A DNA stretch of 64,000 bases from Candidatus Bathyarchaeota archaeon (GCA_963733055.1 CAVTBR010000003.1:192001-256000); one strand, 5' to 3'. Shown: positions 14,418-37,153, numbered from the stretch's first letter. Translations and numbers: made by a program. The notes: generated by a model from the sequence alone, not told the origin.

Positions 14418-14738
14418 TTAAGATTCGCTCTTGAGTGCTGCTCGAATCATGGACTCTGAAGGTAAAGGCGAGATACGTCCGTTCTCTAAGTGGTAAGCCC
14501 TGCACGAGAGTGAAAAATGGGCTGTCTTTGGAGGTTGTATATCCTTCCCGTCAACCCGTATCGTTGGCGAGCCCGCGAATTGGAGCCGTTTCGCTTGGTC
14601 CTCGGATTGTACGTTTATGGTTTCAATTTCTGCGTCGACTCGCTCCTCGGCAAGAATTTTCCTCAGACGGCTGAAAGCTTCGTCATGGGACTCGCAGCCC
14701 TCCCAGTACAGAAACGTAATTCGCCTTCTGATCTCCAA
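14418..14738 (-). CDS. Small thioredoxin-fold protein (DF-family-like, Cys form)
   Basis: LYWEGCESH, FAGSPTIRVDGKD, LSCRAY. Confidence 0.7.
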   Translation of the reverse strand: MEIRRRITFLYWEGCESHDEAFSRLRKILAEERVDAEIETINVQSEDQAKRLQFAGSPTIRVDGKDIQPPKTAHFSLSCRAYHLENGRISPLPSESMIRAALKSES

Positions 14739-14834
14739 AGGAACCGCCTGGACACATTCCACATGAAGCTTACGAAGTTTAAACATTCACGACCGGACAC
14801 CCGGTTGGAGCACGTTTCGACTCGACTCGCAAAG

Positions 14835-15350
14835 TCAATGCTTGATCGAGTGGACTAGTCTACCCTCTCTGTCGATCTTGCCGCGCCTTATTCGGGTGGA
14901 GGAAATCGGCCTTTTGTCGTCGGCGAGGAGGAGATCTATGGGGTCTATGGTGAGGGGTTTCAGACCGTTAGCCTTTCTCTTCTTATTGATCTCATGTGCG
15001 GTTTTGATGGTCCGCCTGCTGACGACCAGCGCGTCGATCCCCGAGACTTTGACGGTCGGCCCGTAGCGGTCGCGTAGAGGAACAATCCGAACTCGGGATA
15101 ATACTCCCCAAGCCGCTAGAAGCCGCTCCAAGTCCTTCTTTCTCTTCTTGTACGGGTCGACCTTGTGCGGCTTATGCAAAGTCCTTGCGAAGTCATCGCT
15201 AGTAATTCCAATCATAACCTTACGACCCACGGTGAAAGCTTGTCTCAACAATTTCCTATGCCCACGGTGCAAGGAATCGAAGGTCCCACCCATCGCGACG
15301 ATTCGATACATCTTGTGGGACCGTGCCATAGTTCTTTCTGGCCTCTTCAA
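14835..15350 (-). CDS. coaD: Archaeal phosphopantetheine adenylyltransferase
   Basis: GGTFDSLHRGH, IN..R...GL.PL, ISSTRIRRG.ID. Confidence 0.88.
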   Translation of the reverse strand: MKRPERTMARSHKMYRIVAMGGTFDSLHRGHRKLLRQAFTVGRKVMIGITSDDFARTLHKPHKVDPYKKRKKDLERLLAAWGVLSRVRIVPLRDRYGPTVKVSGIDALVVSRRTIKTAHEINKKRKANGLKPLTIDPIDLLLADDKRPISSTRIRRGKIDREGRLVHSIKH

Positions 15351-15414
15351 ATCACATTGGTGCGCCCTCGGGGGGGCATGGCACGTTTGGGCATTGGAGA
15401 TTTAGTGCTTTGCT

Positions 15415-16344
15415 TCACTTACCAAGGAGTCGAACGCCCTGGTTGTCGATTGGGGTTGCAAAGACCTTCGCCGAGGGAAACGCTTTCCTCAGGGCCTTTA
15501 CAATTCTTCCCACTTTTCGATTATTCGCTACTCCGTGAACTGCTTCCCCAATCATGTTCTGCGTAGCCCCTACGGCTCCAGAAGCAATCATTGTTGAGAT
15601 CAGGCGTGTAACGACGGGTGTCTCAAAGCCTGCCTCCCGGCTGAACAGCCTCGTTTCTGTGAGAAAAACGGAAAGGGTCGGGTTCTTTCGAATTGCGTCC
15701 ATGGTACGTTTCGCCGGAGCATTCAACCTCGCCACGTAGTCCATGACGAGGGTTTCGCGCTTCGAGATCGGGCCCACGTAGGCACAGATTATTGAATGAT
15801 TTCTTGGAAAGAGCAATCTATCGACAAAACCTATCCCCGGCGCACCCGGTTCTGTGACCAAGACGAACCCTCCTGTGAGCAATGCAGCAGCTGTTCCAAG
15901 CCCTGTTCGATTTACCACCTCCGCTACGTGTGTTATTCTGCCGAGTTCGTTGATGGTAACTGGTAGGTCGGCGGCGTCAGAGACGGCGAGGCATGAAGCT
16001 AGAGATCCGGCGGCGCTTGTACCGAACCCGGCACCAATCGGGCATGCGACCTTCAAGTCGATAGCAACCTCCAGAGTCATCCCTTGCGTCTTCAGAAGAT
16101 GTTCGATCGCCAACCGGGTTGTGTGCGCTTCTGGTGCGGGCTTCGAGTTGATCTTGATCCTGACCTTCGTCTCGGCGCTTTTCTTGACTATGGCGCGTGA
16201 AATGGCACCTCGGGGAATAGCGAACCCACCGCCACGCGCACCGATCCTGGCTGGATCAGCTATTGGATTTCCGGATGAGTCTAGGTTGCAAACTTCGAAG
16301 AAGCTAGAGATTCCAGCCGGGCAGAATGCTTCCGAAACCCGCAA
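15415..16344 (-). CDS. Pantoate kinase (GHMP family)
   Basis: AF.P..IS.FF, PIGAGFGTSAA, HVAEV..RTGLG, QNMIGE; adjacent to coaD. Confidence 0.85.
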   Translation of the reverse strand: MRVSEAFCPAGISSFFEVCNLDSSGNPIADPARIGARGGGFAIPRGAISRAIVKKSAETKVRIKINSKPAPEAHTTRLAIEHLLKTQGMTLEVAIDLKVACPIGAGFGTSAAGSLASCLAVSDAADLPVTINELGRITHVAEVVNRTGLGTAAALLTGGFVLVTEPGAPGIGFVDRLLFPRNHSIICAYVGPISKRETLVMDYVARLNAPAKRTMDAIRKNPTLSVFLTETRLFSREAGFETPVVTRLISTMIASGAVGATQNMIGEAVHGVANNRKVGRIVKALRKAFPSAKVFATPIDNQGVRLLGK

Positions 16345-16361
16345 CGGTCTCGCCGGCTGCG

Positions 16362-17141
16362 CTACTTTTTCTGGGTTCCTCGCTCAATTGCGCGGAGGCT
16401 CGGAAAGGCTGCTCGACACGCAGCGGCGACTGGTGGAGTCAATATGACCATGAACGGAATCTCGGTGAAATAGCTGGAAGCCGTGACAAGGAGAACAAAT
16501 GCGCCTCCCAGAGGCTTGGTGCCAAGACCGACGGCTACGGGAAGACCGAAGATTACGCTGTAGACCACAATCCCCACACCAATTATTGCCGTGCCAATAG
16601 CTAGGCCGATTGAAGCTGCAACCTCAAAATCTGCCCACTTGTTCCGGACGACTATGAGGAAGATGACAGCGAGAACGACAACTAGTCCGGCAAACCCTAA
16701 GTACGAAGTCGGGGACCCAATCGTGGCGGCTCCGAAAAGAAAGTACAATCCCAGAACCAAGGCTACGGCAAATAGTGGTTGAATCACCAAGCTCAAGGAA
16801 ACCAAACTGCGTCTGGCTACTCCCTTCCATTCATGGTTTGTGAGCCACCCTATTACGAAGAATCCAACGAAATTGGACGGCACACCAACCAGGAGACTTA
16901 GAAGCGCGTCATGATGTCCGTAGATCACGTCGGCGAGAAATATCCCAATTGCCGCTCCTATCCCTCCAACCCACGGCCCAAACAATATGGCGAAAGCGGC
17001 AGGCGCGAACACTTGTGGCCAAAACCTAACCCCGAAGATCATTAACGGAAAAACTGTCCACAAGGCGCCTATACCAGCGTACAAAGCCGCGTTTACAGCC
17101 GTCAGCGTCAATTGAAGTGAGAGGGATCCCGATCGTTTCAA
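16362..17141 (-). CDS. ECF transporter S-component (QueT-like), possibly for a CoA precursor
   Basis: AALYA, GVRFWP, LFGP..GG.GAAIG.F..D; multi-TM; co-oriented with PoK and coaD. Confidence 0.7.
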   Translation of the reverse strand: MKRSGSLSLQLTLTAVNAALYAGIGALWTVFPLMIFGVRFWPQVFAPAAFAILFGPWVGGIGAAIGIFLADVIYGHHDALLSLLVGVPSNFVGFFVIGWLTNHEWKGVARRSLVSLSLVIQPLFAVALVLGLYFLFGAATIGSPTSYLGFAGLVVVLAVIFLIVVRNKWADFEVAASIGLAIGTAIIGVGIVVYSVIFGLPVAVGLGTKPLGGAFVLLVTASSYFTEIPFMVILTPPVAAACRAAFPSLRAIERGTQKK

Positions 17142-17272
17142 CTGTATTCCGTACGAAAGAAACCTTCGATCTATTCTAAGCTTGTCCTGTTCTGTTGAGG
17201 TTTATTCGCAAATAACTCGATTGAGTCCAACGAAATGTTAAGATACCCACCAAAGATTGCCTTGCACACGGT

Positions 17273-17429
17273 AGCCCGGTGGTGTAGTGGTCAAACCACG
17301 CACGTGGGACTATGCATAGCATTGGCGCCAGAAACCTGCCACTAGACGGCTCTGGATCCCCTCACCGAGGAGAAACCTGCCGACGGGAGAGGCCAAGCGC
17401 CCCGAATTCGAATCTCCCCCGGGCTACCA
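17273..17429 (+). tRNA. tRNA-Gln(CUG) with four introns (17295-17313, 17322-17347, 17356-17374, 17390-17406)
   Basis: Acceptor AGCCCGG/CCGGGCT+A+CCA; after splicing gives 76 nt with anticodon stem GCAGG/CCTGC, loop CTCTGGA, T stem GGGAG/CTCCC and TTCGAAT loop. Confidence 0.88.
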
Positions 17430-17584
17430 ATAACCACCGTACGAGAACATCGAACGGAGCTCCTCCGGAAGGGATTGCTTATCTCGGGGATCGTCGGTTG
17501 TCGACTCCCAAATAATGAGAGGGTTGATCAATTGGTTTCTGCTAATTTCACCGGCGGCCAGGAGCAGTCGCCCTAATTCTACCA

Positions 17585-17932
17585 ATGGGTGATCACCTGA
17601 TCTCGCCTGTCTTGACAATTCTTCTGGCACCATCCCTCATGTATAGCGTGTTCGGCCCGGGCGCCGTTGCAGCCGTAGTGTTTTTCGTTGTGCTCGGTGT
17701 ATACCAACTCTTGTGGATTGGCATCCTCCTGAAATCCAACAACATATTTTTGCTGGCCATGGGAATCCCAGGAAATCTAGTCTCAATAGTCATCTACTTC
17801 GTGTCCCTGGGCGGAGTTACGATTTTTGGTGTCCCACCGCAGAACGGCGGAATTTTCGCGCTCCTCATCAAGGCGCTGGAGGTTATCTACGTAGTCACAT
17901 GCGTTTACTTGCTAAAGGCTAAACTTCGGTAG
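17585..17932 (+). CDS. Small membrane protein; 5' end uncertain
   Basis: 3-4 hydrophobic helices. Confidence 0.55.
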   Translation: MGDHLISPVLTILLAPSLMYSVFGPGAVAAVVFFVVLGVYQLLWIGILLKSNNIFLLAMGIPGNLVSIVIYFVSLGGVTIFGVPPQNGGIFALLIKALEVIYVVTCVYLLKAKLR

Positions 17933-18142
17933 ACCTTTCCGGATGCGCAAAAGACGCTTATCCTTCCGCGTACGTGGCAGAATTTGTTCACGAGCCTGAA
18001 CTATACCCTGAAGACGGAAGACCAATATTTCCTCGTTCATTTAATTGAGCAAGGGTTACTGGCTGGAATGGAAATAGGTCGCAAGCGAAGCCTCGATAGG
18101 ATCACTTAAGCGTAGCAAAGGGTTCGGAATACGTGAAAAAAT

Positions 18143-18505
18143 ATGCGCAAGGAAAAGTTCAGGACGATAGACGATTACATCAAAGCCTCGCCGAAGGAAG
18201 TTCAGAGCACTCTAGAAAGAATAAGGCAGACAATACGCAAAGCGGCACCAGATGCTGTAGAAGCTATTAGCTATCAAATCCCCACATTCAAACTAAACGG
18301 CAACTTGGTATGGTTTGCAGCGTTCAAGAACCATATTGGATTTTACCCAAGGAAGTCCGGCATTGAAGCATTCAAAAAGGAACTATCGTCATATAGAGTC
18401 GCAAAAGGCTCTGTGCAATTCCCGATAGACAAACCTATCCCACACGATTTGGTGAGAAAAATCGTGGTATTTCGAGTGAAGGAAAAACAAAGCAAAAAGA
18501 GATAG
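18143..18505 (+). CDS. DUF1801/YdhG-like protein
   Basis: TIDDYI, ISYQIPTF, FAAFKNHIGFYP, KGSVQFP. Confidence 0.9.
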   Translation: MRKEKFRTIDDYIKASPKEVQSTLERIRQTIRKAAPDAVEAISYQIPTFKLNGNLVWFAAFKNHIGFYPRKSGIEAFKKELSSYRVAKGSVQFPIDKPIPHDLVRKIVVFRVKEKQSKKR

Positions 18506-18659
18506 AAATAGACTTTGTTCACGCTCAACCTGCCCACCAGTCTTACGGCGGGCAGTAGCGTCGAATTGCCAGGAGCATAAGTGCACGATGTGCTTTTGAT
18601 CCTGGACCACGTCCCGATTCTTTGTGTGAATCTGTCATCTTCAATTAGCGGCACGAACT

Positions 18660-19295
18660 GTGACGTGGAAAATGAACCCGGAGACTTTCCTGCAGGGGCT
18701 GATTGCAGGTTACGGTATTGCCATCCCTGTAGGTCCGGTCGGCATCCTGATAGTTGAAGTTGGGATCCGTAGAGGGTTCAGATTTGCTTTCTTTGCCGGC
18801 TTGGGCGCCGCATCAGCGGACCTAATCTACGCGAGTCTGGCCGCTCTGGCGGGCACGTTCCTAGTTGAGTATCTCAAGCCCTTCTCCTTTGTGATTCAAT
18901 ACGTGAGTGGGTCACTGTTGATAACGATCGGAGTGTGGATGTTCTATCAAGAAAGAAGAACGGGCAGAAGCTTACATCGGAGTGATGCTTCGACTGGCTG
19001 TTTGAGAACGTACGTGACGTTTTTCGGGTTGACGCTATTGAATCCGCTAACTGTCACGTACTTCACATCCTTGATCCTGGGATTACGTTTCAGCATCGTA
19101 ACCGCACCGATGGATGTGCTGAGTTTCGTTTTGGGAACCTTCCTCGCCTCGCTTTCCTGGCAAACACTCATCGCGTCAGTTTGTGGGTTTGGTCACAAGC
19201 GCCTCGCGGCGAGAACCCAGGTGGTTACATTCACTCTTGGTAACTGTGTGGTTGTCGCACTGGGCTTAGCGATCCTTCTCGGATTCAAAATATGA
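18660..19295 (+). CDS. LysE/RhtB family exporter
   Basis: IAIPVGPV, GLGAASAD, LTLLNP. Confidence 0.9.
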   Translation: MTWKMNPETFLQGLIAGYGIAIPVGPVGILIVEVGIRRGFRFAFFAGLGAASADLIYASLAALAGTFLVEYLKPFSFVIQYVSGSLLITIGVWMFYQERRTGRSLHRSDASTGCLRTYVTFFGLTLLNPLTVTYFTSLILGLRFSIVTAPMDVLSFVLGTFLASLSWQTLIASVCGFGHKRLAARTQVVTFTLGNCVVVALGLAILLGFKI

Positions 19296-19516
19296 TGGTC
19301 GAGGAGCGAAAAATCGACACCTATCCTAGGATGCCTGAACTTGTACAGCTGCTGGATTTCGTAGGTAACCACGCGCATCAGGCTATGGAGGAGGTGCACT
19401 CAAAGTATTACTTCATAATCCTTAAATGTAATACATGCTCAATTGCTTACATAGCGCAGTTACCCTGCCGGTCCAAGGAATGTCATCCCCCCATCAACCC
19501 GACGCAAGTGCAATGA
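19292..19516 (+). CDS. Small Cys/His-containing hypothetical protein
   Basis: ATGA overlap with lysE; CxxC and CxxxxC. Confidence 0.5.
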   Translation: MMVEERKIDTYPRMPELVQLLDFVGNHAHQAMEEVHSKYYFIILKCNTCSIAYIAQLPCRSKECHPPINPTQVQ

Positions 19517-19683
19517 CTATAGACGCGCCAGTGCGCCCAGAAACTGTGGAGACCTCCTGTCTGGGCCAAGAGACAAGGTGCAGCAATTGCTACAACTGGT
19601 GGAACCGTGTCTGCAATTCTTGCGATTTGTGTGGATCGGCGCAGTATGCTCCTTGCGTGCACTGCGATTTCAATATGAGATGA
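19513..19683 (+). CDS. 56-aa protein with 8 Cys
   Basis: ATGA overlap with the upstream ORF; CxxC, CxxCxxC, CxxC. Confidence 0.45.
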   Translation: MTIDAPVRPETVETSCLGQETRCSNCYNWWNRVCNSCDLCGSAQYAPCVHCDFNMR

Positions 19684-19817
19684 CCGTGACCAAGCAGATC
19701 ACTGTCCCTTCGATCAGTCCGTCGCTCATGGGGGTCGTTCCTGGCTAGTGGAGTTTTTCCACTTATGTCTATACTGGGGGGATGGTTTGGTTTGGGGTGT
19801 GAGGTGAAGTTGGATCC

Positions 19818-19931
19818 ATGAGAACCATCAAGGTTCCTGTGGTTGAGTACCCAGCAATGGCCTACCCATACTACCCCTACCCGTACACCTACGCCTGGCC
19901 TTGGCCATACGCCTACGGCTATTACTACTAA
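19818..19931 (+). CDS. 37-aa Tyr/Pro-rich peptide
   Basis: MRTIKVPVVEYPAMAYPYYPYPYTYAWPWPYAYGYYY; GAGGTGA RBS at 19801-19807. Confidence 0.6.
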   Translation: MRTIKVPVVEYPAMAYPYYPYPYTYAWPWPYAYGYYY

Positions 19932-20145
19932 ACCAATAGCCCAGTAGACCACCAAAAGCTGAACCCTCACCCACCCTCTTTCTATTCGATTCACGCAAAA
20001 CTACCGCATGAAGCGACTTTTGGAGTACCGGAAATATTCCACAATCTTTTCCCTCGAAACGGTCCGGAGAAAACATTTGTACTCTTCGAGCGAGTACGGA
20101 GGAGCCTTTATCATTTCGTAAAGCGAGAGCACAAGATGAAGCTCG

Positions 20146-20403
20146 TTGCTCGTAATTGTGAATTTGTCCGCGAGAAATTCAAGCTTCCCTGTGGAAGCGC
20201 TAGCGCAGGCTGACTTGGCCATGGAGGCTGTCGGTTTGAAGAAACAGGTTCGATCCGTATTGGTTCCCGGAAAACAGTTTTCGACAACCTACGAGGGTCC
20301 TACAGTTGAAAAGACTGAGGTAGAGGAAATATTGAAGCCGTTGGCCGAGCGGCATCAAATCACGGCATCAGTCGAAACCGAAGAATCTGTCTCATTCCCG
20401 TAA
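20146..20403 (+). CDS. Hypothetical protein
   Basis: Compact alpha/beta-looking ORF occupying the intergenic space. Confidence 0.5.
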   Translation: MLVIVNLSARNSSFPVEALAQADLAMEAVGLKKQVRSVLVPGKQFSTTYEGPTVEKTEVEEILKPLAERHQITASVETEESVSFP

Positions 20404-20425
20404 GAACCTGAACGGCTCTTAATCG

Positions 20426-20846
20426 TTACACAACCTGGATTTCATCTGGGTTAAACGCGGTCCTGTCCTGGGTTAGTACCCATGCTGCAAAGTCGCGTGG
20501 TTCACCATTTTGGACGGATAATACTAGATACGCGAAATTAGGCCAAGCATACTCTAGATCGAGTTGGGATGGTTGGACTGGGGCGTCGGGGTGAGAATGG
20601 TAGACGCCGATCAGGTCGAGTTTAGACTTTCGTGCCTCTTCATCGGCACGTACCAACTCCAAGGGGTCAATGGTGTACCGCCTGCGCTTTGAGGGTGTAG
20701 CCACGTTCTGGGCCGCGAGCGCGTGGTGCACTCTCCTCGCAGTCCGAGGTCAAACCGATCAGGAAACCGCAACATTCCTCTGGGTAAGCGCTTCTTGCGT
20801 GGGTGGTTATGTACTGAAGCTGATCGGCTCGAATGACTATTACCAA
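20426..20846 (-). CDS. JAMM/MPN+ (M67) metallopeptidase, 1-nt frameshift near 20740
   Basis: YPEECCGFLIG in one frame; YHSHP...PS..D in the next. Confidence 0.85.
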
Positions 20847-36595: not shown

Positions 36596-37153
36596 TCAAG
36601 CTTTGAACCATCGGAATACCAAGTAATCGACCTTGCTGCGTCGGTTTGGCACGGCTATGGTGAACTGTTTGCGGACGGTTGTTGCGAGGCGTCCCGCAAG
36701 AACTACCTCGAATGGGCCCATAGTTTCCTGTTCCTTCTTCACGGTCACTATAAACGGCGCATGGTCGATCCCTGGGCCATGCTCATAGATTGCGAAATCT
36801 GAACCGAACCTGATTCCTGGCGTCACGATGAGTCCCTTCTCGCGAAGGTTCTCGTAAGCGCTGTAACCTAAGTTGAACTGTTTGTAAGTGTGATTAGCGA
36901 GTTTGAGTAGTTTCGCCCTAGGAACTGACTTGCCCGTCTCTGCATCGGTTACTCGAATGATCTTACGGTCGAGGAGATACAAGCCCTCCATTAGATCGAG
37001 AATGAGAGGGGCTTTGAATTCCTGTTCAGGTTTCGGTTTTGGGATTCCTACGGGTTTCCCGAAGAAACCCATGCGGTAGAGATGTACCGCTTCTGTAAAG
37101 TTCCATACGACGAGCCTAGTGCCGATTAGTTCGGCTGAAGTCACGTCTGCCAT
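36596..37153 (-). CDS. endA: tRNA splicing endonuclease catalytic alpha subunit with crenarchaeal-specific loop
   Basis: FGSDF.IYEHGPGIDHA (Tyr/His), RLA..VRK (Lys), GKPVGIPKPK loop. Confidence 0.92.
   Translation of the reverse strand: MADVTSAELIGTRLVVWNFTEAVHLYRMGFFGKPVGIPKPKPEQEFKAPLILDLMEGLYLLDRKIIRVTDAETGKSVPRAKLLKLANHTYKQFNLGYSAYENLREKGLIVTPGIRFGSDFAIYEHGPGIDHAPFIVTVKKEQETMGPFEVVLAGRLATTVRKQFTIAVPNRRSKVDYLVFRWFKA

What the first reader, a model, noticed from the sequence alone, without database searches (positions are those of the whole stretch)
17273..17429. tRNA-Gln(CUG) gene with four introns
Seen: a 157-nt gene gives a perfect 76-nt cloverleaf after removing introns at 21/22 (19 nt), 29/30 (26 nt), 37/38 (19 nt) and 53/54 (17 nt). 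Each has a BHB or relaxed-BHB arrangement, e.g. GGTC AA|A CCAC..GTGG GACT AT|G and CTCT GG|A..GGAG AA|A. Established: Thermoproteales tRNAs carry multiple non-canonical introns, and I know of up to three per gene. Inference: four is at or beyond the usual maximum, needs ordered splicing because one exon is only 8 nt, and would be missed by standard tRNA finders.
Basis: partly seen in the sequence, partly recalled or inferred. Interest (0 to 1): 0.75.

Follow-up and report, generated by a model that had tools for sequence, protein, structure and literature searches.

The report
Four-intron glutamine tRNA gene, Bathyarchaeia
This is a real glutamine tRNA gene of an uncultured soil archaeon (Bathyarchaeia), cut into five pieces by four short introns; that is one more than reviews give as the archaeal maximum, but it is no longer a record and it is typical of this lineage.

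Summary
Window 17273-17429 (+) encodes tRNA-Gln(CUG) with an encoded CCA. It has four introns: 17295-17313 (position 21/22), 17322-17347 (29/30), 17356-17374 (37/38) and 17390-17406 (53/54). Removing them gives a 76-nt cloverleaf in which all 21 stem pairs are standard.

- **Motif-free check:** alignment to a natural intron-less tRNA-Gln gene of a relative gives the same four insertions.
- **Conservation:** in 14 same-genus orthologs all 76 exon bases are invariant, against 43 of 93 intron columns.
- **Compensatory changes:** across the order, four stem pairs that join different exons change on both sides.
- **Intron presence:** each non-canonical intron is missing in some ortholog.
- **Promoter:** a promoter-like box is conserved upstream.
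- **Enzymes:** two EndA subunit genes (one in this window) and RtcB are present.

ARAGORN and the Rfam tRNA model miss the gene. No RNA data exist, so splicing is inferred.

The organism is a Bathyarchaeia MAG, not Thermoproteales. Four introns exceed the "up to three" of reviews. A 2026 preprint reports up to five in Asgard archaea, and this scan has already noted four-intron tRNAs in other Bathyarchaeia genomes. This genome has at least two more (Pro-GGG, Glu-UUC). Verdict: a new member of a known kind.

The parts
17229..17245 (+). Promoter-like box (BRE/TATA-like; TTAAGATA lies 28-35 nt upstream of tRNA position 1)
   Evidence: CGAAAYNTTAAGATA is present at the same distance in 16 of 16 same-genus orthologs examined, while the flanking bases vary. 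Its role as a promoter is inferred.
17273..17294 (+). Exon 1 (22 nt): tRNA positions 1-21 (acceptor 5' strand, U8, D-stem 5' strand, D loop)
   Evidence: invariant in 14 of 14 aligned same-genus orthologs.
17295..17313 (+). Intron 1 (19 nt) at 21/22; HBh' motif (central helix GGTC/GACT, intron helix CCAC/GTGG)
   Evidence: H 4/4, h' 4. Absent in orthologs L020, L055 and L059. An intron at 10/11 is present instead in L018, L019 and L068.
17314..17321 (+). Exon 2 (8 nt): positions 22-29 (D-stem 3' strand, position 26, first three bases of the anticodon stem)
   Evidence: It takes part in compensatory pairs 12-23, 27-43 and 29-41 across the order.
17322..17347 (+). Intron 2 (26 nt) at 29/30; relaxed BHB (central helix 3/4, intron helix TGGC/GCCA)
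   Evidence: H 3/4, h 2, h' 5. Absent in ortholog L069. The central helix is 4/4 in L018 and L020, and degenerate (2/4) in 6 of 17 same-genus orthologs.
17348..17355 (+). Exon 3 (8 nt): positions 30-37, containing anticodon CUG at window 17352-17354
   Evidence: invariant in the genus.
17356..17374 (+). Intron 3 (19 nt) at the canonical 37/38 site; hBHBh' motif (central helix CTCT/GGAG)
   Evidence: H 4/4, h 2, h' 2. Present in all CUG orthologs parsed. Absent in the intron-less Gln(UUG) genes L063 and L066.
17375..17389 (+). Exon 4 (15 nt): positions 38-53 (anticodon-stem 3' strand, 4-nt variable loop, T-stem 5' strand)
   Evidence: compensatory pair 49-65 with exon 5 in L016.
17390..17406 (+). 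Intron 4 (17 nt) at 53/54; hBH motif (central helix CGGG/CCCG, outer helix CGA/TCG)
   Evidence: H 4/4, h 3. Absent in L055 and L068. An intron at 59/60 is present instead in L014, L016, L017 and L069.
17407..17429 (+). Exon 5 (23 nt): positions 54-73 (T loop TTCGAAT, T-stem and acceptor 3' strands, discriminator A) plus encoded CCA (17427-17429)
   Evidence: invariant in the genus except for a 3-nt insert in G013.
36596..37153 (-). Gene for a tRNA-splicing endonuclease (EndA) subunit of catalytic type, 185 aa; the enzyme expected to cut these introns
   Evidence: Pfam PF02778 and PF01974. Best solved-structure sequence matches are 3p1z_B, 2cv8_A and 3ajv_B, E 1e-38 to 4e-39. A second paralog lies on contig C1.

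Best explanation
Window 17273-17429 is the functional, and only detectable, tRNA-Gln(CUG) gene of a soil Bathyarchaeia archaeon.

Proposed mechanism (inferred):
1. The gene is transcribed from its own promoter as a roughly 157-nt precursor.
2. Four short introns (21/22, 29/30, 37/38, 53/54) each fold with neighbouring exon bases into a bulge-helix-bulge or relaxed BHB motif.
3. A two-subunit, crenarchaeal-type splicing endonuclease (EndA) cuts in the bulges.
4. RtcB joins the exons, giving a normal 76-nt tRNA that already carries CCA.

The gene structure, its conservation and the presence of the enzymes are shown. Cutting, joining and their order are inferred.
For: **Structure and chance.**
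- Exact parse and cloverleaf.
- Top-scoring parse has four introns, score 29.1, against at most 22.0 for non-tRNA anchors.
- Motif-free alignment to an intron-less natural tRNA-Gln(UUG) (L066) gives the same four insertions.

**Conservation within the genus.**
- In 14 same-genus orthologs, 76 of 79 exon columns are invariant; the other 3 are one 3-nt insert in G013. Only 43 of 93 intron columns are invariant.
- Variation falls in intron loops and bulge bases.
- BHB helix cells are 93.7% paired, against 36.5-46.4% when partners are slid by 1-3 columns.

**Compensatory changes across the order.**
- There are 9 distinct spliced Gln(CUG) sequences from 17 genomes.
- All 4 variable stem pairs (12-23, 27-43, 29-41, 49-65) change on both sides and none is broken. 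Each pair joins bases from different exons.

**Intron presence and absence in orthologs.**
- No 21/22 intron in L020, L055, L059.
- No 29/30 intron in L069.
- No 53/54 intron in L055, L068.
- Intron-less Gln(UUG) genes in L063 and L066.

**Other support.**
- Conserved promoter-like box in 16 of 16 orthologs.
- No second tRNA-Gln gene in the genome by BLAST, regex or parser.
- CAG codons are in use: 91 in long ORFs of the window.
- Two EndA paralogs and one RtcB are present.
Against: - No RNA evidence: no RNA run was listed for this DNA, so neither the precursor nor the spliced tRNA has been seen.
- Intron 2 has only 3 of 4 central pairs here. By my criteria its motif is degenerate (2/4) in 6 of 17 same-genus orthologs, where my BHB-guided parser failed or mis-parsed.
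- Within the genus the BHB helices are conserved but show no covariation: 0 pairs change on both sides.
- Nearest-neighbour folding gives every strict BHB conformation a low probability, at most 0.02. The MFE fold (-55.6 kcal/mol) is not the four-BHB fold (-33.2).
- BHB-like motifs are common by chance.
- One ortholog (G013) has a 3-nt insert in the T loop.
Confidence: 0.92

Rival explanations
1. Fewer true introns: one or more of the four inserted segments is not spliced but stays in the mature tRNA as an expansion. The most likely candidates are the D-loop insert at 21/22 and the motif-poor insert at 29/30.
For: - The 2026 Asgard preprint notes that many D-arm insertions lack a canonical BHB, and that some may not be introns at all (passage read).
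- Intron 2 has a relaxed motif here and a degenerate one in 6 of 17 same-genus orthologs.
- No RNA data are available.
Against: - Intron 1 has a full 4/4 central helix and a 4-bp intron helix.
- A retained 26-nt insert at 29/30 would split the anticodon stem. The stem's pairs 27-43 and 29-41 covary across the insert.
- Orthologs lacking each insert have the same flanking exon bases, directly joined.
Confidence: 0.04
2. Decaying pseudogene: a former tRNA-Gln gene that has accumulated insertions and is no longer used. The working gene would lie elsewhere or in the unassembled roughly 4% of the genome.
For: - The genome is 96% complete in 3 contigs.
- tRNA-Gln(UUG) is also not found, so some tRNA genes are evidently missing or hidden.
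Against: - Exons are invariant while introns vary in 14 species.
- Stem changes across the order are compensatory.
- The promoter-like box is conserved.
- The same four-intron layout is kept in 17 of 17 same-genus genomes that have the gene.
- None of these genomes showed a compact CUG copy among the matches to this gene listed.
Confidence: 0.02
3. Chance assembly: the cloverleaf arises because many BHB-like cut pairs are available in any sequence.
For: 126 BHB-like candidate introns lie inside the 157 nt.
Against: - Score 29.1 against a background maximum of 22.0.
- The motif-free alignment gives the same boundaries.
- The conservation pattern separates exons from introns.
Confidence: 0.01

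Closest known systems
Multiple-intron tRNA genes of Thermoproteales (Pyrobaculum, Thermofilum, Caldivirga; Sugahara et al. 2008, cited in PMC4033280 and PMC8450103, passages read)
   Same: - Several short protein-spliced introns per gene at canonical and non-canonical positions.
- BHB, HBh' or hBH motifs built partly from exon bases.
- Two EndA paralogs, as in the heterotetrameric crenarchaeal enzyme.
- Close introns, so that one removal can be needed before the next motif forms.
   Different: - Four introns here, against a stated maximum of three.
- The organism is Bathyarchaeia.
- None of the four introns has a recognisable copy elsewhere in the genome: the best other blastn-short match is 15 nt. 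Thermoproteales introns form families shared between tRNA genes.
[quoted passage not shown]
   Same: - Most tRNA genes are interrupted, with about 2 introns per gene.
- Many introns lie in the D arm.
- Standard tools miss them.
- Introns are not shared between genes.
- Intron positions differ between related lineages.
   Different: - A different phylum.
- Up to five per gene are reported there, against four as the most I confirmed here.
- I could not read the supplementary table of PMC11291895. The per-gene counts published in 2024 are therefore unverified by me.
Earlier notes of this scan on other Bathyarchaeia genomes (e1-4673322 tRNA-Trp and e1-2409808 tRNA-Lys with four introns; e1-3392724 tRNA-Gln(CUG) with three)
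   Same: The same class of organism and the same kind of gene. The three-intron Gln(CUG) layout matches what I see in families f7, f8 and f2 of this order.
   Different: Different genomes and, for the four-intron cases, different isoacceptors. These notes are unchecked AI notes and not independent evidence.
Split and tri-split tRNA genes (Nanoarchaeum equitans, Caldivirga maquilingensis; named in PMC4033280, passage read)
   Same: The tRNA body is broken at BHB-forming sites.
   Different: Here all five exons are colinear within 157 nt behind one promoter-like box. Nothing indicates trans-splicing or permutation.

Membership tests
tRNA (cloverleaf, Rfam RF00005 type), isoacceptor Gln(CUG) | 7-bp acceptor stem, D arm, 5-bp anticodon stem with 7-nt loop and U33, 5-bp T stem with a T-loop of TTCRANY type, and a discriminator base | tested here: met
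   The spliced product has 21 of 21 standard stem pairs, U8, A14, GG in the D loop, U33, G37 and T loop TTCGAAT. It has the same length as, and is co-linear with, natural intron-less tRNA-Gln genes.
tRNA (cloverleaf, Rfam RF00005 type), isoacceptor Gln(CUG) | Genomic sequence scores above the RF00005 gathering cut-off | tested here: not met
   No RF00005 match at gathering or at E<=10 on the unspliced gene. This is expected for four introns. The spliced sequence could not be given to the tool.
tRNA (cloverleaf, Rfam RF00005 type), isoacceptor Gln(CUG) | Stem pairs maintained by compensatory change among orthologs | tested here: met
   4 of 4 variable pairs change on both sides in 9 distinct spliced sequences from 17 genomes.
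Archaeal protein-spliced (BHB) tRNA intron | [quoted passage not shown] | tested here: met
   I1, I3 and I4 have 4/4 central pairs. I2 has 3/4, so it is relaxed.
Archaeal protein-spliced (BHB) tRNA intron | At least one flanking helix (h or h') of two or more pairs | tested here: met
   I1 has h' 4; I2 has h 2 and h' 5; I3 has h 2 and h' 2; I4 has h 3.
Archaeal protein-spliced (BHB) tRNA intron | Splicing endonuclease and RNA ligase encoded by the genome | tested here: met
   Two EndA paralogs carrying PF01974 and PF02778, and RtcB PF01139 at E 2e-173.
Archaeal protein-spliced (BHB) tRNA intron | Intron actually removed from the transcript | not testable with these tools
   No RNA run was listed for this DNA.
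Thermoproteales multi-intron tRNA genes (as a lineage-specific set with transposing intron families) | Host belongs to the order Thermoproteales | tested here: not met
   25 of 28 loci encoding close EndA relatives are titled Bathyarchaeia or Bathyarchaeota, and the best has 97% identity.
Thermoproteales multi-intron tRNA genes (as a lineage-specific set with transposing intron families) | Related intron sequences recur in other tRNA genes of the same genome | tested here: not met
   blastn-short of the whole gene against the genome finds no other match longer than 15 nt.

The most novel reading that the evidence does not exclude
This Bathyarchaeia order, and above all the window's family, is a third and so far undescribed hot spot of tRNA-gene fragmentation, alongside Thermoproteales and the Asgard families.

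- **Intron load.** There are about 2 introns per tRNA gene and several four-intron genes per genome: Gln-CUG, Pro-GGG and Glu-UUC here, and Gln-UUG in G020 and G034.
- **Intron relocation.** Introns relocate between nearby sites while the total stays constant. The fourth Gln intron sits at 53/54 or at 59/60. Both versions end in CCCGAA, which can pair with either CGGG or TTCG. This suggests intron sliding rather than independent gain.
- **Practical consequence.** Standard tRNA counts for these MAGs are several-fold too low.
Probability: 0.55. Interest if true: 0.5.

Novelty: new member of a known kind. Interest (0 to 1): 0.35.

Why it matters
- **Annotation.** A covariance model sees only 12-13 tRNAs in this 2.9-Mb genome. 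It sees 11-27 in the 9 genomes of this order that are at least 90% complete, against a median of 31.5 in 32 genomes of other Bathyarchaeia orders. tRNA-based quality criteria and codon-reading inferences for these MAGs will therefore be wrong unless multi-intron genes are parsed.
- **Biology.** The gene adds a non-Asgard, non-Thermoproteales lineage in which four protein-spliced introns per tRNA are stably kept across a genus.
- **Model system.** It offers a compact natural series, with the same gene carrying 0, 2, 3 or 4 introns and introns at 10/11 or 21/22 and at 53/54 or 59/60. This series can be used to study how introns are gained, lost or moved, and how EndA handles 8-nt exons.
- **Limits.** It does not open a new kind of mechanism.

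Tried and rejected
- **Standard finders.** ARAGORN on the window and on the genome with intron mode, and Rfam at gathering and at E<=10, give no call for this gene. The only nearby Rfam hit is a chance-level sR24 match at 17508-17535 (E 5.5).
- **RNA evidence.** No RNA holder was listed for window 14500-20500. Only one DNA soil-metagenome run holds part of it.
- **My first naive splice** used sequential rather than standard numbering. It gave a C-U mismatch in the anticodon stem. It was corrected.
- **Alternative third intron** 17352-17370 (anticodon AGA) ties in parser score. I rejected it because its motif is weaker (H 3/4, h 0, h' 3) and because it would make an exon base variable among orthologs.
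- **Covariation in BHB helices within the genus:** none.
- **Thermodynamic ordering**. Absolute probabilities are too low to be meaningful. The one large relative effect is that the I3 motif rises from 1.7e-7 to 5.7e-3 once I2 is removed.
- **Genome-wide census.**
  - The first three parser runs hit the time limit.
  - The final run is anchored on an encoded CCA and contiguous acceptor strands, so it is incomplete: 31 loci were found. It mis-handles class II tRNAs.
  - A relaxed rescan of 7 loci known from ARAGORN or Rfam recovered only 1.
- **tRNA-Gln(UUG)** was not found in this genome by BLAST with a same-genus gene, by an acceptor regex, or by an anticodon-exon motif.
- **The 11-nt repeat AGAAACCTGCC,** present in intron 2 and at the intron 3/exon 4 junction, is shared only by the four closest species in the alignment (G000, G019, G013, G017). 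I treated it as unexplained, not functional.
- **Supplementary Data 4 of PMC11291895** could not be read because of time-outs.
- **Literature searches** for tRNA introns in Bathyarchaeia or Bathyarchaeota returned no paper describing them. This covers the held library only.

Full report
**1. Observation.**
This removes 17295-17313 (19 nt), 17322-17347 (26 nt), 17356-17374 (19 nt) and 17390-17406 (17 nt) and leaves 76 nt. The product has these features:
- a 7-bp acceptor stem starting A1-U72;
- U8, and a 4-bp D stem with two G-U pairs;
- a 9-nt D loop with A14 and GG;
- a perfect 5-bp anticodon stem;
- the loop C-U-CUG-G-A, so the anticodon is CUG;
- a 4-nt variable loop;
- a 5-bp T stem with loop TTCGAAT;
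- discriminator A and an encoded CCA.

All 21 of 21 stem pairs are standard. In standard numbering the introns lie at 21/22, 29/30, 37/38 and 53/54, as claimed.

**2. Is it more than chance?**
- BHB-likeness alone is weak evidence. With criteria that admit all four introns, the window holds 2.19 candidate "introns" per base, and 126 lie inside the gene.
- I wrote an exhaustive parser. It walks from a paired acceptor end to a CCA, may jump any BHB-like candidate, and scores the resulting cloverleaf.
- For this gene the best parse is the four-intron one, at score 29.1. All 10 parses it listed have four introns.
- An equal-scoring variant uses a weaker third intron (17352-17370), which would give anticodon AGA. 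I rejected it on motif quality and on conservation.
- Genome-wide there are 32,322 acceptor-plus-CCA anchors. Among the 266 hits kept from the anchors parsed on contig C1, non-tRNA anchors reached at most 22.0 and recognisable tRNAs scored 27 or more.
- Independently of any motif, I aligned the gene globally to the natural intron-less tRNA-Gln(UUG) of relative G031 (L066). This gives exactly four insertions, at gene positions 23-41, 49-74 (equivalent to 50-75), 84-102 and 118-134.

**3. Who carries it.**
- The window is G000:C3:192001-256000, in a 2.88-Mb, three-contig genome that is 96% complete.
- Close relatives of a protein encoded in the window come from records titled Candidatus Bathyarchaeia or Bathyarchaeota in 25 of 28 loci, with a best identity of 97%.
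- Two are labelled as bacteria and one simply as "archaeon"; I take these as binning or naming noise.
- The organism is therefore a soil or peat Bathyarchaeia MAG, not a member of Thermoproteales.

**4. Comparative evidence.**
- *Orthologs found.* The gene was found full-length or nearly so in 17 same-genus genomes.
- *Exons versus introns.* In the 14 with the identical layout, 76 of 79 exon columns are invariant. The other three are a GCC insert in the T loop of G013. Only 43 of 93 intron columns are invariant.
- *Where the variation lies.* It sits in intron loops and in bulge bases next to the cut sites. The intron strands of the central helices (GACT, CTAG, GGAG, CCCG) are kept.
- *BHB pairing.* BHB cells are 93.7% paired, against 36.5-46.4% when partners are slid. 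No pair changes on both sides, so within the genus this is conservation and not covariation.
- *Moved fourth intron.* In three genus members (G016, G022, G001) the fourth intron is at 59/60 instead of 53/54. They still have four introns.
- *Other families of the order:*
  - four introns, with 10/11 in place of 21/22 (L018, L019);
  - three introns (L020, L059: no 21/22; L068: 10/11, 29/30, 37/38; L069: 21/22, 37/38, 59/60);
  - two introns (L055: 29/30 and 37/38).
- *Boundary check.* Every non-canonical intron is absent in at least one ortholog whose exon bases are then directly joined. This confirms each boundary.
- *Compensatory changes.* There are 9 distinct spliced sequences from 17 genomes. 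The four variable stem pairs (12-23, 27-43, 29-41, 49-65) all change on both sides and none is broken. Each pair joins bases from different exons.
- *Promoter-like box.* CGAAAYNTTAAGATA sits 28-42 nt upstream in 16 of 16 genus orthologs, amid variable flanks. I read it as a BRE/TATA-type promoter (inference).

**5. Splicing machinery and mechanism.**
- *Enzymes present.*
  - The genome encodes two EndA paralogs with both Pfam endonuclease domains.
  - One is in this very window (36596-37153, minus strand). Its closest solved-structure sequences are 3p1z_B, 2cv8_A and 3ajv_B. I recall these as crenarchaeal EndA subunits, including the heterotetrameric Aeropyrum enzyme; those organism names come from memory, not from a call.
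  - Two paralogs fit the two-subunit enzyme type that reviews link to relaxed-motif, non-canonical introns (PMC4033280, passage read).
  - RtcB is present.
- *Motif classes*: I1 is HBh', I2 is relaxed with 3/4 central pairs but a 5-bp intron helix, I3 is hBHBh' at the canonical site, and I4 is hBH.
- *Competition with the cloverleaf.* The I2 and I4 motifs borrow bases of the D, anticodon and T stems. The precursor must therefore refold between steps (shown directly by the sequence).
- *Order of splicing.*
  - The four core motifs occupy gene positions 17-39, 44-73, 76-105 and 109-138. They can be drawn together (-33.2 kcal/mol, against an MFE of -55.6).
  - Strict ordering is therefore not forced by overlap.
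  - The outer helix of I3 is the anticodon stem, which I2 splits. In the model the I3 motif becomes about 10^4-fold more probable once I2 is out.
  - Exon 3 (8 nt) would be held by only two base pairs if both its introns were cut before any ligation.
  - Stepwise cut-and-join, with I2 before I3, is therefore plausible but remains inferred.

**6.
- *Another intact tRNA-Gln(CUG):* none was found by blastn-short, by an acceptor regex, or by the parser.
- *A better parse with fewer introns:* none.
- *A mature product:* untestable, because no RNA run was listed.

**7. Context in this genome and lineage.**
- *tRNA counts by RF00005 (E<=1e-5).*
  - RF00005 finds 13 tRNAs over its cut-off in this genome.
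  - It finds 5-15 matches in the 22 other same-genus genomes.
  - Among genomes at least 90% complete, this order has 11-27 matches (median 16, n=9). Other Bathyarchaeia orders have 15-46 (median 31.5, n=32).
  - This is a proxy only.
- *Parser census.*
  - My CCA-anchored parser found 31 loci.
  - Leaving out one dubious locus, and counting three 10-nt "introns" in Leu genes as variable arms, gives roughly 64 introns in 30 genes. That is about 2.1 per gene, and 28 of the 30 genes are interrupted.
  - This census is motif-guided and incomplete, and it is unreliable for class II tRNAs.
- *Other four-intron genes.*
  - tRNA-Pro(GGG) (C3:546744-546926) is supported by motif-free alignment to the compact Pro(UGG).
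  - tRNA-Glu(UUC) (C1:1437744-1437903) is supported by alignment to the two-intron Glu(CUC).
  - Gln(UUG) genes with four introns occur in G020 and G034.

**8. Comparison with what is known.**
- Reviews and the tRNAscan-SE 2.0 paper state a maximum of three introns per archaeal tRNA gene (PMC4033280 and PMC8450103, passages read).
- Asgard genomes were reported in 2024 to have introns in 92-95% of tRNA genes, and multiple introns in over half (PMC11291895, passages read; its Supplementary Data 4 could not be opened).
- A preprint of October 2026 reports 2.2 intervening sequences per gene and up to five in one gene in three Asgard families (10.64898/2026.10.13.758758, abstract and passages read). 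It does not mention Bathyarchaeia.
- Three searches of the held library for tRNA introns in Bathyarchaeia or Bathyarchaeota found no paper describing them.
- This scan has already noted four-intron tRNA-Trp and tRNA-Lys genes and a three-intron tRNA-Gln(CUG) in other Bathyarchaeia genomes. These are unchecked AI notes.
- Unlike Thermoproteales introns, these four have no recognisable copies elsewhere in the genome.

**9. Verdict.**
This is a real tRNA-Gln(CUG) gene with four protein-spliced introns, almost certainly functional, and conserved across a Bathyarchaeia genus. It exceeds the textbook maximum. It is not unique in its genome, its class or the recent literature. It is a new member of a known kind, of moderate interest. 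The wider pattern is the more interesting lead: heavy tRNA fragmentation in this order, and introns that shift between 53/54 and 59/60 and between 10/11 and 21/22.

Noticed in passing
window 36596-37153 (-): Gene for an EndA (tRNA-splicing endonuclease) subunit of catalytic type lies 19 kb downstream of the four-intron tRNA, in the same window. A second paralog is at G000:C1 (L022:1474-2040, minus strand).
   Followed up: partly
G000:C3:546744-546926 (-) and G000:C1:1437744-1437903 (-), outside the window: Two further four-intron tRNA genes, Pro(GGG) and Glu(UUC), are in the same genome. They are supported by motif-free alignment to a compact Pro(UGG) and to a two-intron Glu(CUC).
   Followed up: partly
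G000:C3:527880-528160 (-), outside the window: A copy of the last ~31 nt of tRNA-Pro(GGG) plus CCA, with no recognisable 5' half, lies 19 kb from the full gene. It may be the att-site duplicate of an integrated element, or a split or remnant gene.
   Followed up: no
whole genome G000: No tRNA-Gln(UUG) gene was found. Yet CAA codons are used (106 against 91 CAG in long ORFs of the window), and same-genus genomes carry a 2-4-intron Gln(UUG) gene. It is either in the unassembled ~4% or more deeply hidden.
   Followed up: partly
L003:1501-1661 (-) (genome G013): The ortholog has a 3-nt GCC insert inside the T loop, between T55 and C56. My parser finds no valid tRNA there. It could be an assembly error, a pseudogene or an odd T loop.
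   Followed up: no
L014, L016, L017, L069 versus the window gene (17390-17406): The fourth intron sits at 59/60 in G016, G022, G001 and G025, but at 53/54 elsewhere. Both versions end in CCCGAA, which can pair with CGGG (53/54) or TTCG (59/60). This looks like possible intron sliding across the palindromic TTCGAA.
   Followed up: partly
L018 and L019, about 17-23 nt upstream of the tRNA start: Orthologs with a 10/11 intron have an extra upstream copy of the acceptor 5' strand (AGCCCGG or GGCCCGG) in the leader. This resembles the leader helix noted in scan finding e1-4869753.
   Followed up: no
window 17331-17341 and 17371-17381: An 11-nt direct repeat, AGAAACCTGCC, occurs inside intron 2 and again across the intron 3/exon 4 junction. 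In the alignment it is shared only by the four closest species (G000, G019, G013, G017).
   Followed up: partly
window 17508-17535 (+): Weak Rfam match to the C/D-box sRNA family sR24 (12.3 bits against a gathering score of 36, E 5.5), about 80 nt downstream of the tRNA. It is probably chance.
   Followed up: no
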